Notes under the pieces: generated by a model | The model's database searches: none | Told to the model about the DNA's origin: nothing | Seen by the model: the letters and a program-made list of their open reading frames with translations, nothing else | Shown: positions 33,427 through 60,948 of the stretch, one piece after another | How the letters are laid out: the number at the start of each line of letters is the position of its first letter | How positions within the stretch are numbered: position 1 is the first letter of the stretch | Assembly: GCA_965205975.1 (NCBI GenBank) | Contig: OZ242195.1 | Location: forward strand, 1,088,001-1,152,000 | Source: Candidatus Latescibacterota bacterium | GTDB lineage: Bacteria; Latescibacterota; UBA2968 | Length of the DNA: 64,000 nucleotides | Reading direction: 5' to 3' | Position numbers and translations under genes: made by a program

Positions 33427-34533
33427 ATGGAATACTTAACATACAAATACAAAATGTATAGTCGCTGTGATCGCAATATGTATATCCATAGGGATATAGA
33501 TTCTTTTGCTGAGGTGTATAATCATTTCATTGCCTTGCACAAGCGATACTATCGGCGTTTTGGTAAATATCCGAGTAAGTTCACAATGATTAACCATTTG
33601 GCAAAGCTAAAAAGAACAACACGCTTTGCACATTGGCGTTTGTTGCCGTCACAGGCATTGCAAAATGTGGTTGAGCGCATAGACTTTGGCTATCAGAAAT
33701 TCTTTGCCAGAGACAACAAGCGTCCGCCCACATTCAGGTCTCGCTTTCGGTATCAGTCTTATACGCTGAAGCAAACAGGATATAAATTCCTTGAGCGTAA
33801 CAAGGTGCGTATTGGCAAGCGTATATTCAGATACCATAAGAGCAGAAAGTTCGATGTCGAGCGTATCAAGATGGTCACAATCAAACGTGACCGCGTAGGC
33901 GATTTGTGGCTATGTGTTGTTGCAAAGGCTGAGGGTATCAAGTCATTCATGATCAAGAACGGTAAAACCGCAGGTTTTGATTTTGGCTTGCAAACATATC
34001 TAACAGCCTCAGACAGCACAAGGACACAATCGCCATTGTTCTTCAATCGTAATTCGAGGAAAGTCAAAAAGGCTAATCGCAATCTTTCTCGTAAAAAGAA
34101 AGGGAGCAACAATCGTCACAGGGCAAGCGTAAATCATGCCAGAGTGCATAGGCGCGTTGCGAATCAGCGTAGAGACTATCACTGGCGACTTGCCTATCAA
34201 CTGTGTAAAGACTATGACGTTATGTTCTTTGAGACTTTGAACATTGACGCCATGAAACAGTTGTGGGGCAGAAAGATTAGCGATTTGGGCTTTTCAAACT
34301 TCTTGTCCATACTCAAGTATGTGGCAAAAAAGACGGGCAAAGTTGTCAAACAAATCGACAAATGGCTACCCACGTCAAAGACATGCTCGGCTTGTGATAC
34401 AGTGAAAGAGGACCTCGAATTGCGAGAGAGAACATTCCATTGTTGCGCGTGTGGTCTTGAGATAGACAGAGACCTCAACGCGGCGACAAACATTCACAGG
34501 TGGGGGCGTCCACCTATGGCGGAGGTAGCGTAA
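33427..34533 (+). CDS. tnpB: RNA-guided endonuclease TnpB
   Basis: RuvC motifs GFDFGL, FETLNI and DRDLNAA; zinc finger CSAC...CCAC. Confidence 0.95.
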   Translation: MEYLTYKYKMYSRCDRNMYIHRDIDSFAEVYNHFIALHKRYYRRFGKYPSKFTMINHLAKLKRTTRFAHWRLLPSQALQNVVERIDFGYQKFFARDNKRPPTFRSRFRYQSYTLKQTGYKFLERNKVRIGKRIFRYHKSRKFDVERIKMVTIKRDRVGDLWLCVVAKAEGIKSFMIKNGKTAGFDFGLQTYLTASDSTRTQSPLFFNRNSRKVKKANRNLSRKKKGSNNRHRASVNHARVHRRVANQRRDYHWRLAYQLCKDYDVMFFETLNIDAMKQLWGRKISDLGFSNFLSILKYVAKKTGKVVKQIDKWLPTSKTCSACDTVKEDLELRERTFHCCACGLEIDRDLNAATNIHRWGRPPMAEVA

Positions 34534-56400: not shown

Positions 56401-58383
56401 TTATCTGCCCGGCAGATTTTTTGCACGGTTCACGAGATGATGGACATCCATGTATGGTTCGGGGGCTGTGGACCTCCAGACGACCTCGCCGGTCGCATCC
56501 AGCAGGACTGTGCCGTGCGCTGGGCCGGTGTGGGCCATTCCAAACCAGCCTGCCCATTTGCCAGAAGTGTCTGAGACCAGGCTCGACGACAGCGCAGCAA
56601 CTCTCTCCTGGTCTGGATCGGATTCTGGCGTGATGATCACCAGATTGATGTCGTTCTCCCGAAGCACCTCGTCGAACAAACGCGCGTGCTCGTAACAATG
56701 CCCGCATTGAACGCCAGTGATGAATGTGACGACGGTCGTCTTGCCAGTGATCAAGCTGAGTTGCTCTGGCTCTTCCACAACCAGGAACTGTCCCATCATC
56801 CCGTTGTCTTCGTGTTCCAGGATGTGGCAGTGGTACATGTATGGTACCTGAGGATCAGCATATCGATCGAAGGCCATGATGATCCGAACGAGATCACCTG
56901 GAGGCACCAGGACTGTGTCTTTCCAGCCGAGGTCGGCACTGGTGGATGGTTGGCCGTTGCGGTCGAGAATTTGAAACTGGACCGGATGGAGGTGGAAAGG
57001 GTGCGGCTGACCGCCGCGATTATGTACTTCCCAAATCTCAATGTCTCCCAATCGCACGACCTCATCAATTCTCTCCATGTCCATTGTCTTGCCGTTGATC
57101 GGTGGTCCCCCTCGACCTCCTCGACCTCTTCGACCTCCCCGTCCCCCTCGTCCTCCTTGTCCTCGTTCGCCTTGTAGAGCCGCCAGATTCCGGGTGATGC
57201 GTTGTTGTATGTTTTGTAGTCGTCCCCCTCGTTCCCCTCGACCACCTTGTCGGAGTCCAGCCAAAACCATCGGACGGGTTTTGGCGGCGAGTGAGGGATC
57301 GATGCGGGAGATGGTGTTGAGGCGCTCTGGCAGTGCGTGAGATGCGCGTTTTGCTGGCTGGGGAACGATTTTCAACAATTGCAGGTTCCCCGTGCCGATT
57401 CCCCATAAAAACGATATAATCGTTCTCCGCAATCCTGCTTCTGGGTAGCTTTTCAACACCACCTCAGCACCGTCGCTGAAGTCAACCAGGATTTCGGCTC
57501 GCTCGCCGGGTGCGAGGATCACGCGGTTGGTTTTGAGGGGCGTCTCGAGGAATCCGCCATCTGTGGCGATCTGATGAAACTCTCGGTTATCGTCAAAGCC
57601 GATGTAGTAGATACGCGCATTCGAGCCGTTTAACAGTCTGAATCGAATGCGACGCGACTCAACCTGGAGAAATGGATTATAGGTTCCATTGATCAGCATG
57701 GTGTTTCCAAAGACAGCACCCTGGTTGCGGGCAAAGCGAAACGCACCATCGTTGTCAAACAGTCGGTCCTGGAGCACGAGTGGAATGTCGTCAACGCCGT
57801 AGGTCTTTGGCAGGTCCAGCGCATCACTGTTATCGTCATCGATCCACATGAGGCCAGCGACCCCCCGATAGACCTGCCGTCCCGTATTGCCATGCGGATG
57901 CGGGTGGTACCATAACGGAGCAGCCTGTTGATCGACCGGAAAGCTGGCAGTCCACGATACTCCAGGCTCAATTTTCTGATGTGGTGTGCCGTCCATGCGA
58001 GCGGGAACGTGCATTCCGTGCCAGTGCATTGTCGTTATTTCATCCAGGTTGTTCTGGACGATCAGATCGACATCTTCGCCCCGACGCAGTCGCAGTGTCG
58101 GTCCCAGAAACGGTCCGTTAACGCCAGCTGTCGGTGTTTGTTTGCCTGGCAAGAACTCTCGGCTTCCTTCAGCAACGGTCAGGTGAAACTGCCGACGTCC
58201 ATCCACAACGGTTCCAAATAACTGTTCGGGAATCAGCAGTTTATTCTCAAAGGTCAACCCACTGTTTGTGGCCCGGATGAACAACAGCCAGTAGCAGGTC
58301 ACGCCCAATAACAGTACGATAATCAACAGTTCGATTGTGATTGGCTTCAGCCGTCGGGACCTGGTCGCTGTATCTGCAGGCAT
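56401..58383 (-). CDS. Multicopper oxidase (CueO-like) with a C-terminal CxxC thioredoxin/AhpC-like domain
   Basis: HWHG, WYHPH, HPFHLH and HCHILEHEDNGMM motifs; tail FITGVQCGHC...HGTVLLD.TG.V.W. Confidence 0.92.
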   Translation of the reverse strand: MPADTATRSRRLKPITIELLIIVLLLGVTCYWLLFIRATNSGLTFENKLLIPEQLFGTVVDGRRQFHLTVAEGSREFLPGKQTPTAGVNGPFLGPTLRLRRGEDVDLIVQNNLDEITTMHWHGMHVPARMDGTPHQKIEPGVSWTASFPVDQQAAPLWYHPHPHGNTGRQVYRGVAGLMWIDDDNSDALDLPKTYGVDDIPLVLQDRLFDNDGAFRFARNQGAVFGNTMLINGTYNPFLQVESRRIRFRLLNGSNARIYYIGFDDNREFHQIATDGGFLETPLKTNRVILAPGERAEILVDFSDGAEVVLKSYPEAGLRRTIISFLWGIGTGNLQLLKIVPQPAKRASHALPERLNTISRIDPSLAAKTRPMVLAGLRQGGRGERGGRLQNIQQRITRNLAALQGERGQGGRGGRGGRRGRGGRGGPPINGKTMDMERIDEVVRLGDIEIWEVHNRGGQPHPFHLHPVQFQILDRNGQPSTSADLGWKDTVLVPPGDLVRIIMAFDRYADPQVPYMYHCHILEHEDNGMMGQFLVVEEPEQLSLITGKTTVVTFITGVQCGHCYEHARLFDEVLRENDINLVIITPESDPDQERVAALSSSLVSDTSGKWAGWFGMAHTGPAHGTVLLDATGEVVWRSTAPEPYMDVHHLVNRAKNLPGR

Positions 58384-58582: not shown

Positions 58583-59422
58583 TTACCAACGCCTCTTCAG
58601 CGCATCGCGGACACTGACCTCTAAGTGAGGACCGAATCCCTCGATCTCCAACCGAACTTTGAAGCCATCCTGAATCGGTGACAGAGCTTCGTGATGGGTG
58701 CCGGTTGCAACGACATCCCCTGGTTCAAGGGTGATGACGCTGGTGATTTCCTCCAGCAACTCGGGGATGTGGCGGGCCATATCGCCTGTAGAAAAATCGT
58801 GTTTGAGGGTGTTGTTGACCCATAGCTTCACTGAAAGGTCATTTGGGTCTGATACCTCATCGGCAGTCACCAGAGTCGGTCCGAGGGGAGCAAATGTGTG
58901 CCAGCTTTTTCCCAGGAAGAAGCCACCGGGCAATCCCCGAGCCGAAACATCTATGAACTGTGTATAACCAAAGACGTGGTCCAGCGCATCGGCTTGCGAG
59001 AGGTGGCTGGCTCTCTTGCCGATTACCAGTGCCAACTCTGGCTCAAAATGGAAAACACTCGCTTCGGCGTCCGGGAGTTCAACCGTGCTGCCGGTAGGCA
59101 TCACACTCGTGTTGGCCTTGAGAAATCCATTGAACAGACTTCGCTCCGGCTGCCCCGGCTCGATATAATTACCAGCGGCACACATGAGTTGACTGGGGCG
59201 GGGCAGGGGCGATTGCAAAGTCACCGTATCGAGGGCGACACCGTTTCCACCTTCTATAGCGCTCTCGATTCTGGATTGCATGGCATCCCAATCAGTAATG
59301 ATCATCTGCATCATTTCTTGAGCGTTGTGATACCCTAAGTCAGCGACCGAATTACCAACTGGGACGACTGTATCGCCTTGCAAAACACCCAGTTGAAAAT
59401 CATTGTAGAGTACGAGTTTCAT
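58583..59422 (-). CDS. Fumarylacetoacetate hydrolase family protein
   Basis: GNY, FEPELALVIG, DVSAR, GKS and LEPGDV..TGT motifs. Confidence 0.93.
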   Translation of the reverse strand: MKLVLYNDFQLGVLQGDTVVPVGNSVADLGYHNAQEMMQMIITDWDAMQSRIESAIEGGNGVALDTVTLQSPLPRPSQLMCAAGNYIEPGQPERSLFNGFLKANTSVMPTGSTVELPDAEASVFHFEPELALVIGKRASHLSQADALDHVFGYTQFIDVSARGLPGGFFLGKSWHTFAPLGPTLVTADEVSDPNDLSVKLWVNNTLKHDFSTGDMARHIPELLEEITSVITLEPGDVVATGTHHEALSPIQDGFKVRLEIEGFGPHLEVSVRDALKRRW

Positions 59423-59552
59423 GAGAATTTCCTCCTGAAAAATAATGTTAATGAAGATCCTTTTCTGGGAATCTATCTCGTTTAAGCTCGGCCAATATAA
59501 GACATTTTCCCGGGGATTGAAAATCTGAATGATGGCTTGCGATTTCTTTCAC

Positions 59553-59983
59553 TTTCCTGTAGGAAGCCCCGTCCTTTGGGCGTGGTCAGAGATAGTTGGC
59601 TTTGCCGTTAAGCCGTTTTGTGGGTATATTTCGCAGGTGCTATCGTAGCGCACACAAAGGCACTCTCTTTTGAGAGTAAACGGTTTCGGTGTGGGATAGC
59701 ACACAAAATCCTCTCTGTGATGTTAGTTGAGAGGCAGATTTGGCAACAACAGCGGTATGGATTGCGGTTGTGTTGTCGTCAAATCTGATGGGCACAGTTA
59801 GGGGCCTGACCTCCCAAACCTGCGGTAGCAATCCGCTGCTGTCAACTGCCCTGAAGTCTCGCCACGCAGTGAGCGGTTTAAACCTAAGCCCTTGCTCGGA
59901 TATGCTGCATTGCCTCCAATGGGTGGGTCAAGCACCTGGGGTGTGGCAGGGACAAGCCACCTGCTCAGCAGGTGGTGGTTGAC
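59553..59983 (+). mobile_element. Non-coding IS200/IS605-type element (PATE/MITE-like), 431 bp
   Basis: Left end TCAC|...GAAG-CCCCGTCC-TTT-GGGCGTGG; right end CAAG-CCACCTG-CTCAG-CAGGTGG-TGGT-TGAC|. No transposase or TnpB ORF. Confidence 0.8.
59602..59630 (+). promoter_or_regulatory. sigma70 promoter inside the element
   Basis: TTGCCG-N17-TATATT. Confidence 0.6.
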
Positions 59984-60003
59984 ATCGTTCTGACTATCCG
60001 GAG
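59637..60003 (+). ncRNA. Predicted structured RNA: unknown 5' domain + omegaRNA-like 3' domain + flank-derived guide
   Basis: Consecutive stems with G-U pairs on the + strand; GTCAACTGCC (59841-59850) is complementary to the terminal GGTGGTTGAC. Confidence 0.55.
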
Positions 60004-60948
60004 TTGTATCGGCATGATGAAAATCATCCTGCCAAAGCCTTAAAGCCCTATCAGAGCTACATAGATAATCCCCTTTATATGCCATATGATCGCATCCATA
60101 ACGCGGTCAATAACTATGATTATTATGGCAGTATTACTGCGGTGGATGAGCAATTGGGGCGGGTTTTGGATTGGCTCGATAACCAGCCTGAAAGTGTTCG
60201 GGATAATACCATTGTCATCTATACGTCCGACCATGGTGCGATGGGTGGTGCTCAGAATGTTGCAGGAGGGCAAAAGAGATGGCCGCATGACCCTTCATCG
60301 AGAATACCATTTCTCGTGCGTTGGCATAAGGGTATTGACACTCCCGGGCGGGAAGCGGATGAACTCTTCTCATTCATTGATTTCTTTCCGACCTTTTGTC
60401 ATTTGGCAGGATTAGACGAAATGTTGGCAAAAAAAAATGATAGAGAAAGCCTGGAGTCTTTAGGCTACTTAAAAGCCAGTCCTGGTGTGAATCACAGTAG
60501 AAATATTATGGCAGAATCAGGCGGACCTGATCCAGATTCTGTATTTTTATTTCATTTTAGCAATATGAATTCCATATCGAGTCCTTGTCCTATTCACCGA
60601 ACCGTTGTGACAAAGGACTGGGCATATAGTGTCAAGGGGAAAACACGCCTGGGGGGGAAACCGAATTGGACAGTGTGGGACGAACCCGGCGGTTGGCTGT
60701 ACGACCGAGGCAAAGATCCGTTTCAGTTGGACAATTTGTTTTTCAATGAGAATTTTGAAGCCATTCGCACAGAGCTTCATCCTTTATTACAAAACTGGAT
60801 GAAAGAGGCAGAACTTCCATTTAGAAATAGGTGGTTTGAGAAAACGACCCGGAAAAATATCGAAGCGTGGTCATCTGAATGTGGTATTCTCTCTGAAGAC
60901 GAAGAAGCGATGAGAACACAGGGCCAGTCGTACGTCATGAATGTATGA
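59984..60948 (+). pseudogene. 3' half of a sulfatase, 5'-truncated at the element's right end
   Basis: YYGSITAVDEQLGR and YTSDHG are present, CxPxR is absent, and the frame is open back to the element boundary. Confidence 0.85.

What the first reader, a model, noticed from the sequence alone, without database searches (positions are those of the whole stretch)
59553..60003. Protein-free IS200/IS605 element that appears to express a large structured RNA ending in an omegaRNA-like scaffold
Seen: both ends fit the TnpA(Y1) guide/cleavage pairing rule as I recall it from IS608: left guide GAAG with target TCAC (59549-52), right guide CAAG with terminal TGAC (59980-83). A promoter TTGCCG-N17-TATATT would start RNA at ~59637, the first base of stem GTGCTATC/GATAGCAC. 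Where tnpB should be there are ~200 nt of stems: ACTCTC/GAGAGT, CCTCTC/GAGAGG, a long CAGATTTGGC.../...GTCAAATCTG arm and GCGG-TAGCAAT-CCGC. They include a twice-repeated module TAGC(GC)ACACAAA-n-CTCTC-loop-GAGAG-n-TTT(C)GG. GTCAACTGCC then pairs with the terminal GGTGGTTGAC, as in TnpB omegaRNAs. I found no TnpB remnant. Inference: not a simple deletion derivative but a mobile RNA gene. It could be a trans-acting guide with an extra, undescribed 5' RNA domain, using TnpA/TnpB encoded elsewhere and guided by the flank ATCGTTCTGACTATCCGGAG. The flanks are again unmatched (intergenic DNA versus mid-sulfatase).
Basis: partly seen in the sequence, partly recalled or inferred. Interest (0 to 1): 0.85.

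Follow-up and report, generated by a model that had tools for sequence, protein, structure and literature searches.

The report
Protein-free transposon carrying a guide-RNA gene
This is a small mobile DNA element with no protein gene that appears to make a guide RNA for a nuclease encoded elsewhere in the genome; such elements are already known, but this one carries an extra conserved RNA fold of unknown role.

Summary
Window 59553-59983 is a 431-nt IS200/IS605-type element, inserted 3' of TTCAC and ending in GGTTGAC. The genome has 3 copies. There are 13 copies in 8 genomes of one Latescibacterota genus, 65-99% alike.

It is a derivative of a tnpB-only IS found in the same genus. It keeps:
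- the left end, with a promoter-like site where the parent IS has its own;
- a decayed remnant of the last ~60 nt of tnpB;
- the right end, which together with that remnant forms the omegaRNA scaffold.

The roughly 1 kb tnpB body is replaced by about 170 nt with no detectable relative. That segment folds into helices kept by compensatory changes: 12 of 57 pairs, against 1-4 in slid controls. Contigs from four sponge metatranscriptome studies cover the element and run past its right end.

Best reading, about 0.6: a standalone, mobile omegaRNA gene (PATE type) used in trans by TnpB. Intact, TAM-compatible tnpB copies are present in this genome. TnpA is absent here but present in 13 of 21 genomes of the genus.

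This concept is already in print. The new features are the covarying 5' domain, an inserted hairpin antisense to the tnpB 3' end, and a deletion of about 770 nt between two TTCAC sites, which explains the unmatched flanks.

The parts
59548..59552 (+). Target / transposon-adjacent motif TTCAC, not part of the element
   Evidence: Directly 5' of all 12 full-length copies (11 TTCAC, 1 ATCAC). The same motif flanks the tnpB ISs of the own genome.
59553..59636 (+). Left end. Holds guide GAAG 59563-66, imperfect hairpin 59567-85, and promoter-like TTGCCG (59602-07) N17 TATATT (59625-30).
   Evidence: 84-88% identical to the left end of full-length tnpB ISs in G005, G006 and G014. Promoter scan. The parent IS has TTGACA-16-TATAGT (11 of 12) at about the same place.
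59637..59807 (+). 5' RNA domain. Closing stem 59637-44/59695-702 around hairpin 59662-67/59672-77; hairpin 59710-15/59729-34; long arm 59735-51/59771-87; conserved junction 59788-807.
   Evidence: The counted structure (element 85-268, which runs 13 nt beyond this part) has 57 pairs, 95.9% of cells paired, 12 pairs changed on both sides, against 1-4 in slid controls. No match to tnpB, own genome, relatives or Rfam. Model R1 finds it only inside the 13 copies.
59808..59983 (+). Decayed tnpB 3' remnant plus right end, forming an omegaRNA-like scaffold. Hairpin 59822-25/59833-36; GTCAAC 59841-46 pairing with GTTGAC 59978-83; central stem 59856-65/59941-53; guide CAAG 59953-56; right-end hairpin 59957-64/59968-75.
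   Evidence: Aligns with the 3' ends of tnpB ISs from the codons for DHADRNAARNI onward. The counted structure (element 269-431) has 53 pairs, 97.2% paired, 7 with double change. Model R2, built on tnpB-linked regions only, hits 13 of 13 copies at 9-18.6 bits.
59866..59908 (+). Extra hairpin inserted in the scaffold's multiloop. 59886-59901 is the exact reverse complement of the last codons of tnpB.
   Evidence: Absent from all tnpB-linked scaffolds. Antisense runs are 16, 21, 16 and 14 nt in 4 of 6 variants, against a shuffle maximum of 12-13. nhmmer minus-strand hit in 7 of 7 tnpB loci.
59984..60003 (+). Flank that would serve as the guide (ATCGTTCTGACTATCCGGAG); also the start of the truncated sulfatase remnant.
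   Evidence: In 7 of 7 relatives' loci that held both flanks, this sequence follows TTTTTCAC inside an intact sulfatase gene. RNA-library contigs run across the right end of other copies into their flanks.
60004..60948 (+). 3' third of a sulfatase gene. Its 5' part is lost in a ~770-nt deletion beside the element.
   Evidence: Pfam Sulfatase profile positions 205-300 of 301 only. Relatives have 762-809 nt between the two flanks.

Best explanation
The element is a non-autonomous IS200/IS605-family transposon of the PATE type: both transposon ends and no protein gene. It descends from a tnpB-only IS of the same Latescibacterota genus and works as a mobile, standalone omegaRNA gene.

SHOWN. It is multi-copy and always sits 3' of TTCAC. 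Relatives have empty sites. It keeps the parent's left end, a remnant of the tnpB 3' end, and the right end.

SUPPORTED BUT NOT PROVEN. A promoter-like site in the left end, at the place where the parent IS has its own promoter-like site, would drive a + strand RNA of about 350 nt. This RNA would run through the right end into the flank.

INFERRED.
- The 3' 176 nt fold into the family's omegaRNA scaffold.
- TnpB made by a related IS in the same genome, with the same TTCAC motif, binds that scaffold.
- The complex cuts the vacated site (TTCAC plus the flank sequence) after excision by TnpA.
- Recombination then restores the element. The element thus uses both TnpA and TnpB in trans.

THE 5' DOMAIN. 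The ~170-nt 5' domain replaces the tnpB mRNA body. Its fold is under selection. I take it to be needed for accumulation, processing or loading of the guide RNA, but its role is not known.
For: COPIES AND ENDS.
- 3 copies at 99% in the own genome.
- 13 copies in 8 of 61 related genomes searched, all in one genus.
- TTCAC and GGTTGAC boundaries in 12 of 12 full-length copies.
- Empty site TTTTTCAC|ATCGTTC in 7 of 7 relatives' loci that held both flanks.

PARENT IS.
- Full-length ISs with the same left end (84-88%), a 363-aa tnpB and a similar right end (78-87%) occur in G005, G006 and G014.
- The own genome has 7 open tnpB frames, including two of this subfamily, whose right ends finish in GGTGGTTGAC. 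TTCAC stands at the left of the one at 3.18 Mb.
- The 3.18 Mb copy is 363 aa with PF07282 and PF01385.
- The scaffold aligns from the tnpB codons DHADRNAARNI to the end.
- Model R2, built on tnpB-linked regions only, hits 13 of 13 copies.

STRUCTURE.
- 17 of 113 consensus pairs show double changes.
- 5' domain: 12 of 57 pairs, 95.9% paired, against 40-46% paired and 1-4 pairs in slid controls. The long arm has 8 of 16.
- 3' domain: 7 of 53 pairs.
- Many G-U pairs make the fold specific to the + strand. Fold z is -3.49 on + and -2.22 on -.

TRANSCRIPTION.
- Promoter-like site found. The parent IS has one at 11 of 12 matches about 9 nt further from its left end.
- Contigs from RNA libraries of 4 studies cover 59593-59984. 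In X1, word depth is 39.7-78.8 inside the element, 4.1-5.6 on the left and 0 on the right.
- Three of these contigs run 42-228 nt past the right end.

OTHER.
- No conserved ORF. No tnpB protein remnant.
[quoted passage not shown] Standalone omegaRNAs 'shown to function in trans' (PMC10691335, passage).
Against: - No Y1 TnpA in this genome (0 matches, genome 98% complete), so the copies cannot move here now.
- The promoter match is weak (9 of 12). The tool finds no + strand promoter in the 70% variant of G012. By eye, only TTGTAG-17-TATTAT is there.
- The RNA evidence comes from assembled contigs of metatranscriptomes. DNA carry-over, strand, and 5' and 3' ends cannot be judged. Depth sums over several copies and strains.
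- The element lacks the 5' strand of the second hairpin of the tnpB-linked scaffold and has an extra ~43-nt hairpin.
- R2 scores are low, at 9-18.6 bits and E from 1.4e-4 to 0.14, so TnpB binding is not assured.
- Covariation rests on about 4 independent lineages among 12 sequences, and the structure was derived from the same alignment.
- The GTCAAC/GTTGAC pairing never varies, so it is untested.
- The G016c copy has a T in the last place of the right-end guide.
- No function can be assigned to the 5' domain.
Confidence: 0.6

Rival explanations
1. It is an inert internal-deletion derivative (a MITE-like relic). It spreads or persists only because its ends are recognised by TnpA. The RNA, if made, has no role, and the folds are incidental.
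For: Most copies (8 of 13, counting the truncated one) are 98% or more alike, so conservation among them could simply reflect recent spread. There is no TnpA in this genome. The promoter match is weak and is not found by the tool in one variant. One copy is 5'-truncated and one has a changed right-end guide base.
Against: Variants only 65-69% alike keep the same length and architecture. They keep the helices through changes on both sides: 12 of 57 and 7 of 53 pairs, against 0-4 in slid controls. The most conserved block is the junction plus scaffold, not the transposon ends. RNA-library contigs cover it in 4 studies.
Confidence: 0.15
2. The conserved helices act in single-stranded DNA rather than RNA. 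They would shape the top strand that TnpA excises and inserts.
For: IS200/IS605 elements move as top-strand single-stranded DNA; this is established knowledge, restated in the passages read. The strand that carries TTCAC 5' of the left end is the same + strand on which the G-T/G-U-containing helices form.
Against: The full-length tnpB ISs that share these ends carry a tnpB gene in place of these helices. The interior sits exactly downstream of a promoter-like site and upstream of a guide-RNA scaffold. It is found in RNA libraries.
Confidence: 0.1
3. The RNA is mainly a regulator or competitor of the resident tnpB IS. Its inserted hairpin is antisense to the tnpB mRNA 3' end, which forms the first two hairpins of the resident omegaRNA. 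Pairing there would block maturation of the resident guide or change tnpB expression.
For: Exact antisense runs of 16, 21, 16 and 14 nt fall on the same tnpB position in 4 of 6 variants, against a shuffle maximum of 12-13. A minus-strand profile hit occurs at the tnpB stop region in 7 of 7 tnpB loci, E 0.002-0.03. The block is among the most conserved parts of the element.
Against: The block may simply be a relic of an inverted duplication of the tnpB end. Part of it is paired inside the element's own hairpin. In G012 and G014 the exact run at that site is no longer than chance. A whole-RNA duplex energy test was uninformative: -116.8 against -111.2 +/- 6.8, with 12 of 60 shuffles as good.
Confidence: 0.1
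4. It is a miniature IStron: a self-splicing intron fused to transposon ends, which removes itself from host transcripts.
For: The architecture of left end, structured RNA, omegaRNA and right end resembles IStrons, and laboratory mini-IStrons without tnpA or tnpB do splice (10.1101/2023.11.20.567912, passages). Copy A lies in a sulfatase gene in sense orientation.
Against: No group I or II intron or ribozyme match in Rfam, even at E up to 10 in the window and E up to 1 in 4 variants. In 13 copies there is no consistent pattern of sense insertions into long open frames. The 5' exon would end in C and the element ends in C; by the group I rule as I recall it, U and G are expected.
Confidence: 0.03

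Closest known systems
PATE-like protein-free IS200/IS605 elements that encode omegaRNAs (Geobacillus stearothermophilus; Meers et al., preprint PMC10055086, passages read)
   Same: Left and right ends of a tnpB IS family with no protein gene. An omegaRNA would have to be used in trans by TnpB of other IS copies. Mobilisation would be by TnpA in trans.
   Different: This element has a ~170-nt covarying RNA domain between the promoter and the scaffold, and an extra hairpin antisense to the tnpB 3' end. It comes from a different phylum, in sponge-associated Latescibacterota. I did not see the PATE sequences or figures of that paper, so I cannot say whether any of them has a comparable 5' extension.
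Standalone, mobilised omegaRNAs of OMEGA systems (described in Altae-Tran et al., PNAS 2023, PMC10691335, passage read, citing their 2021 work, which I did not read)
   Same: A guide-RNA gene without effector or transposase, in a genome that also holds effector-containing loci. Reported to function in trans.
   Different: That passage does not mention an added structured 5' domain or an antisense block. Biochemical use by TnpB is not shown for the present element.
The tnpB-only (IS1341-type) IS of the same genus, for example G006 locus L021:1492-2749 and own-genome copies at 3.18 Mb and 0.02 Mb
   Same: Same TAM (TTCAC or TTCAT). Left end 84-88% alike, with a promoter-like site in a similar place. 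Same last ~60 nt of tnpB, central stem, right-end hairpin and GTTGAC end.
   Different: The 1.09-kb tnpB ORF is replaced by ~170 nt of unrelated structured sequence. The second scaffold hairpin is lost and a new hairpin is inserted.
IStrons (group I intron plus IS605/IS607 tnpB; Zedaveinyte et al. preprint, passages read)
   Same: A structured RNA lies 5' of an omegaRNA within transposon ends, and the RNA functions overlap at the right end.
   Different: No intron model matches. The boundary nucleotides and insertion contexts do not fit.

Membership tests
IS200/IS605-family non-autonomous element (PATE type) | Insertion 3' of a fixed short motif, without target-site duplication | tested here: met
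   12 of 12 full-length copies follow TCAC (11 TTCAC, 1 ATCAC), and the flanks show no duplication. The empty site TTTTTCAC|ATCGTTC is seen in 7 of 7 relatives' loci holding both flanks.
IS200/IS605-family non-autonomous element (PATE type) | Different left and right ends, each with a subterminal imperfect hairpin, homologous to the ends of a coding IS | tested here: met
   Left end matches at E 1e-13 to 1e-9 and right end at E 1e-8 to 2e-6, in 5 of 7 tnpB IS loci each. The right-end hairpin has 9 bp with 2 compensatory pairs. The left-end hairpin is thermodynamically weak in this copy.
IS200/IS605-family non-autonomous element (PATE type) | No protein-coding gene | tested here: met
   Open frames differ in place and frame among 6 variants. 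tblastn with TnpB gave a best E of 0.037 over 16 aa.
IS200/IS605-family non-autonomous element (PATE type) | Mobilised by a Y1 (HUH) TnpA | not testable with these tools
   PF01797 has 0 matches in the own genome and matches in 13 of 21 genomes of the genus. A tnpA next to a left-end-like hairpin (86%) is seen in G006.
TnpB omegaRNA (standalone form) | Scaffold homologous to the 3' end of tnpB plus the right end | tested here: met
   The alignment runs from the DHADRNAARNI codons to GTTGAC, with shared motifs. Model R2 hits 13 of 13 copies, but at only 9-18.6 bits. One scaffold hairpin is missing and one is added.
TnpB omegaRNA (standalone form) | Transcript continues across the right end so that the flank serves as guide | tested here: inconclusive
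   RNA-library contigs run 42, 119 and 228 nt past 59983 into the flanks of other copies. These are contigs only, with no strand or end information, and DNA carry-over cannot be excluded.
TnpB omegaRNA (standalone form) | A compatible TnpB with the same TAM in the same genome | tested here: met
   Intact 363-aa TnpB at 3.18 Mb with PF07282 and PF01385. Its IS is flanked by TTCAC and ends in GGTGGTTGAC. Compatibility itself is inferred.
TnpB omegaRNA (standalone form) | Bound by TnpB and directs TAM-dependent DNA cleavage | not testable with these tools
   No experiment was possible. The tool for predicting complexes does not take RNA.
IStron / group I intron | Match to an intron model (conserved catalytic core) | tested here: not met
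   No Rfam match at gathering score in the window, at E up to 10 in 59400-60100, or at E up to 1 within the element in 4 variant loci. Rfam models may miss atypical introns.
IStron / group I intron | Sense insertions in genes whose frame is restored by exact removal | tested here: not met
   13 copies were examined. Only copy A lies in a recognisable gene in sense orientation, and no consistent long junction-spanning frames appear.
Any described RNA family (Rfam 15), including self-cleaving ribozymes and HEARO | Covariance-model match | tested here: not met
   The only hits were chance-level matches to unrelated families or lay in the flanks.

The most novel reading that the evidence does not exclude
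The element is an RNA-level parasite of the tnpB IS. Its transcript carries its own scaffold and guide, plus two additions that the parent lacks. One is a conserved ~170-nt 5' domain. The other is a hairpin whose 16-21 nt are antisense to the part of the tnpB mRNA that forms the first hairpins of the resident omegaRNA. By pairing there, it would hinder maturation of the resident guide and divert TnpB to the protein-free element. That would be a guide-RNA conflict between an autonomous and a non-autonomous transposon.
Probability: 0.1. Interest if true: 0.8.

Novelty: new variant of a known kind. Interest (0 to 1): 0.5.

Why it matters
Protein-free IS200/IS605 elements and standalone omegaRNAs are mentioned in the literature, but the PNAS 2023 passage read says their biological role is unknown. 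This is a natural case with three useful properties. The parent IS is known. There are diverged copies that allow covariation analysis. There are traces in metatranscriptomes.

It suggests that selection can keep a guide-RNA gene alive after the nuclease gene is lost. It also suggests that such a gene can gain RNA parts, a 5' domain and an antisense hairpin, which the parent lacks. If the 5' domain helps the guide accumulate or load, it could be of practical use for TnpB guide design. If the antisense block acts on the resident tnpB transcript, it would reveal competition between transposons for a shared nuclease.

The precise loss of ~770 nt between two TTCAC sites beside the element also hints that these elements can cause target-motif-bounded deletions.

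Tried and rejected
RFAM. Gathering-score scan of the whole window, E up to 10 on 59400-60100, and E up to 1 on 4 variant loci plus one full-length IS. Nothing lay within the element.

ORIGIN OF THE INTERIOR.
- tblastn with TnpB: best E 0.037.
- blastn with short words against a full-length IS: ends and the antisense block only.
- nhmmer profile of the element against 7 tnpB loci: nothing for profile positions 60-287 except one hit at E 7.4.
- blastn against the own genome and 61 related genomes: only one 27-nt match at E 7e-4.
- An 11-nt sense match (AAACGGTTTCG) to tnpB codons KRFR in 5 of 6 variants lies within the shuffle range measured for antisense runs. I do not count it.

WIDER COPIES. 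Pattern scans of metagenome contigs (2 patterns, 0 hits) and viral contigs (0 hits). The genome-contig scan returned 9 loci in genomes already found. Model R1 over 151 genomes of the phylum found the 13 known copies only.

OTHER TARGETS FOR THE GUIDES. For the three 16-nt guides, there is no other site with 1 mismatch or fewer, and none of the sites with 3 mismatches or fewer follows TTCAC.

DUPLEX ENERGY. The whole-RNA duplex test against the tnpB end timed out and was then uninformative.

PROMOTER IN THE 70% VARIANT. The tool found none on the + strand.

REPEATED MODULE. Not found as a repeat.

EARLIER NOTES OF THIS SCAN. Nothing on this element.

RNA COVER. The right flank 60020-60400 had no cover in the four RNA runs.
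Full report
WHAT IS THERE

The stretch 59553-59983 (431 nt) is a discrete repeat. The own genome is one 5.56-Mb contig, 98% complete. It holds three copies at 99% identity. Two are full length and one begins at element position 30.

A BLAST search of 61 related genomes found matches in 13. Full-length copies occur in G005, G007, G010, G012, G014, G016 (four copies) and G020. That makes 13 copies in 8 genomes, all in one genus. Record titles call these genomes Candidatus Latescibacterota MAGs.

Copies fall into four groups by identity to copy A on the alignment: 98-99%, 90%, 87%, and a group of three at 65-66% (BLAST gave 88% and 69-70% for the last two). The three are 94-96% alike among themselves.

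In the alignment with flanks, similarity begins exactly after TCAC (11 TTCAC, 1 ATCAC) and ends exactly after GGTTGAC in 12 of 12 full-length copies. There is no duplication of flank sequence.

WHERE IT COMES FROM

The genome has 7 open tnpB frames and one fragment, and no Y1 transposase.

Two intact tnpB ISs (3.18 Mb and 0.02 Mb) and a degraded one (0.94 Mb) end in GGTGGTTGAC. The first and the degraded one share AGTCTCGCC, CCAATGGTGG and GGCAGGGACAAGCC with the element's right part. TTCAC or ATCAC stands at the left of those two.

In G005, G006 and G014 there are full-length ISs of about 1.25 kb. Their left end is 84-88% identical to element positions 1-59. They carry a 363-aa tnpB and a right end 78-87% identical to the element's.

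A profile of the element, run against 7 such loci, matched three regions:
- the left end, at E 1e-13 to 1e-9 in 5 of 7;
- the right end, at E 1e-8 to 2e-6 in 5 of 7, and 0.006 in one more;
- a short block on the opposite strand, in 7 of 7.

Nothing matched for profile positions 60-287 apart from one hit at E 7.4.

A direct alignment shows that from 59808 the element follows the last ~60 nt of tnpB (codons DHADRNAARNIRARALCQQA), with deletions, and then the right end. What remains is the part of tnpB that doubles as the 5' part of the guide-RNA scaffold.

The full-length IS has a strong promoter-like site (TTGACA-16-TATAGT, 11 of 12 matches) about 9 nt further from its left end than the element's TTGCCG-17-TATATT is from its own.

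The element is thus left end, decayed tnpB 3' end and right end, with the ~1 kb tnpB body replaced by ~170 nt (59637-59807). These ~170 nt match nothing in tnpB (tblastn best E 0.037), in the own genome, in 61 relatives or in Rfam.

IS THE INTERIOR A STRUCTURED RNA?

The + strand RNA from 59637 to 60003 folds at -143.5 kcal/mol, z -3.49, with 0 of 100 shuffles as good. The opposite strand folds at z -2.22, with 3 of 100 as good.

On 12 sequences the consensus fold has 113 pairs, 17 of them changed on both sides with pairing kept.

I counted the two domains separately, with controls.

| Domain | Pairs | Cells paired | Pairs changed on both sides | Slid controls |
|---|---|---|---|---|
| 5' (element 85-268), | 57 | 95.9% | 12 | 40-46% paired, 1-4 pairs |
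| 3' (element 269-431), | 53 | 97.2% | 7 | 38-49% paired, 0-3 pairs |

Within the 5' domain, the long arm 59735-59787 has 8 of 16 pairs changed on both sides.

Many pairs are G-U, which would be C-A on the other strand, so the fold belongs to the + strand.

Two limits apply. Only about four lineages are independent, and the structure was derived from the same alignment.

A covariance model of the 5' domain (R1) was run over 151 genomes sampled from the phylum. It found only the 13 known copies, in 8 genomes of one genus. The domain occurs only inside this element, as far as searched.

No open frame is conserved across variants.

IS IT TRANSCRIBED?

Eleven runs on record as RNA, from sponge or coded-organism metatranscriptomes, hold part of the stretch. 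I laid four runs from four studies.
- In X1, contigs cover 59593-59835 (word depth 39.7), 59806-59847 (78.8) and 59818-59983/4 (41.2 and 13.6). The left-flank contigs have depth 4.1-5.6 and the right flank has none.
- X6 has a 264-nt contig wholly inside the element (59678-59941, depth 31.4).
- X5 has 59653-59983 plus 42 further letters.
- Two X1 contigs continue 119 and 228 nt into the flanks of other copies: the G016c site and a flank close to that of the G010/G007 site.

This agrees with a transcript that begins in the left end and crosses the right end. However, these are assembled contigs. Strand, ends and DNA carry-over cannot be judged, and depth sums several copies and strains.

The promoter itself is a weak match. 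The tool finds no + strand promoter in the G012 variant. There I see only TTGTAG-17-TATTAT by eye.

HOW IT MOST LIKELY WORKS

Shown: the element is, or recently was, mobile DNA of the IS200/IS605 kind.

Inferred:
- A Y1 TnpA moves it in trans. TnpA is absent from this genome but present in 13 of 21 genomes of the genus. One sits next to a left-end-like hairpin in G006.
- The transcript's last 176 nt form the family's guide-RNA scaffold. This comprises hairpin 59822-36, GTCAAC 59841-46 pairing with the terminal GTTGAC, central stem 59856-65/59941-53, and the right-end hairpin.
- TnpB from the related ISs binds it. Those ISs use the same TTCAC motif.
- The RNP cuts TTCAC plus the flank sequence, which is the vacated site. 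Recombination with a copy that still holds the element then restores it. This is the model of Meers et al. (passages).

The 20 nt after the right end of copy A do follow TTTTTCAC in the intact sulfatase gene of relatives, in 7 of 7 loci that held both flanks. The three guides of this genome have no other plausible target.

A model built only from tnpB-linked scaffolds (R2) recognises all 13 copies, but weakly (9-18.6 bits). The element also lacks one scaffold hairpin and has one extra. Compatibility with TnpB is therefore plausible, not assured.

The role of the 5' domain is unknown. TnpB is reported to cut its guide out of its own mRNA (title and start of abstract of PMC10278001, seen in the listing). 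Since the 5' domain takes the place of that mRNA body, I think it most likely serves stability, processing or loading of the guide.

TWO ODDITIES

First, the extra hairpin (59866-59908) contains 59886-59901. This is the exact reverse complement of the last codons of tnpB, a stretch that forms the first two hairpins of the tnpB-linked scaffold.
- The exact antisense run is 16 nt in A, 21 in G016c, 16 in G016d and 14 in G020, all at the same tnpB position. Shuffles give at most 12-13.
- In G012 and G014 it does not exceed chance.

It may be a relic of an inverted duplication, or it may pair with the resident tnpB transcript. I cannot tell which. A whole-RNA duplex test was uninformative.

Second, the unmatched flanks. 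In relatives, the left flank (ending TTTCAC, TTTTAC or TTTCAT) and the right flank (preceded by TTTTTCAC) lie 762-809 nt apart, with the 5' two-thirds of the sulfatase gene between them.

Here that DNA is missing, and the ORF at 60004-60948 matches only profile positions 205-300 of 301 of the Sulfatase family. DNA between two target motifs was therefore lost beside the element. Whether TnpA made this deletion or short-repeat slippage did is open.

COMPARISON WITH WHAT IS KNOWN

Protein-free IS200/IS605 elements resembling PATEs that 'often encode omegaRNAs' needing TnpB in trans are mentioned by Meers et al. (preprint, passages). 'Standalone omegaRNAs' that are mobilised and work in trans, with unknown biological role, are mentioned by Altae-Tran et al. 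2023 (passage). The kind is therefore known.

I found no mention of a conserved 5' RNA domain or an antisense hairpin in the passages read. My literature searches were made, and I did not read those papers' figures or supplements. This absence is only as good as those searches.

An IStron reading is rejected. There is no intron model match, the boundary bases are unsuitable (rule recalled), and insertions do not consistently lie in genes in sense orientation.

VERDICT

I file it as a new variant of a known kind, with interest 0.5.

Noticed in passing
window 59548-59552 and 59984 onward; relatives' loci L043-L051: About 770 nt (762-809 nt in 7 relatives) lying between two TTCAC-type motifs are missing next to the element. 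The loss removes the 5' two-thirds of a sulfatase gene. A deletion bounded by two target motifs suggests a transposase-made or microhomology deletion.
   Followed up: partly
L035 (G016) and L018 (G020), element at 1501-1929 and 1501-1951: Two species carry element variants only 71% alike at one and the same site. The right flanks are 93.8% identical over 1493 nt; the left flanks are alike for only 36 nt. Either the site was hit twice or one variant replaced the other.
   Followed up: partly
L021:1487-1524, and likewise L028, L029, L030, L040: In 5 of 5 full-length tnpB ISs of this family seen in relatives, the left end abuts the start codon of a gene on the other strand. The TAM TTCAT is the reverse complement of ATGAA. 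The reverse complement of the left end offers an AGG-type ribosome-binding-like motif a few bases upstream (by eye). The IS may supply translation signals to the neighbouring gene.
   Followed up: no
window 34291-34494 (+): A tnpB of another subfamily lies in the same window: a 377-aa open frame whose downstream sequence reads ...GGGAGTACGCCAAC and is unlike this element's right end. It was not studied further.
   Followed up: no
element copies in G005, G007, G010, G016 compared with the flanking genes of window 58700-60900: Copies in other species are 98-99% identical to copy A, although they sit at different sites. Orthologous flanking genes are only 87-95% identical. This suggests recent spread between species of the genus.
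   Followed up: no
L039:956-1008 (-), flank of the G016d copy: A match to the Rfam family DUF3800-VI RNA (RF02915), at 40.2 bits against a gathering score of 35.
   Followed up: no
window 56401-58383 (-): A 660-aa ORF with copper-oxidase-like histidine motifs (by eye, not searched) carries a Gly/Arg-rich low-complexity insert (…GGRGGRGGRRGRGGRGG…).
   Followed up: no
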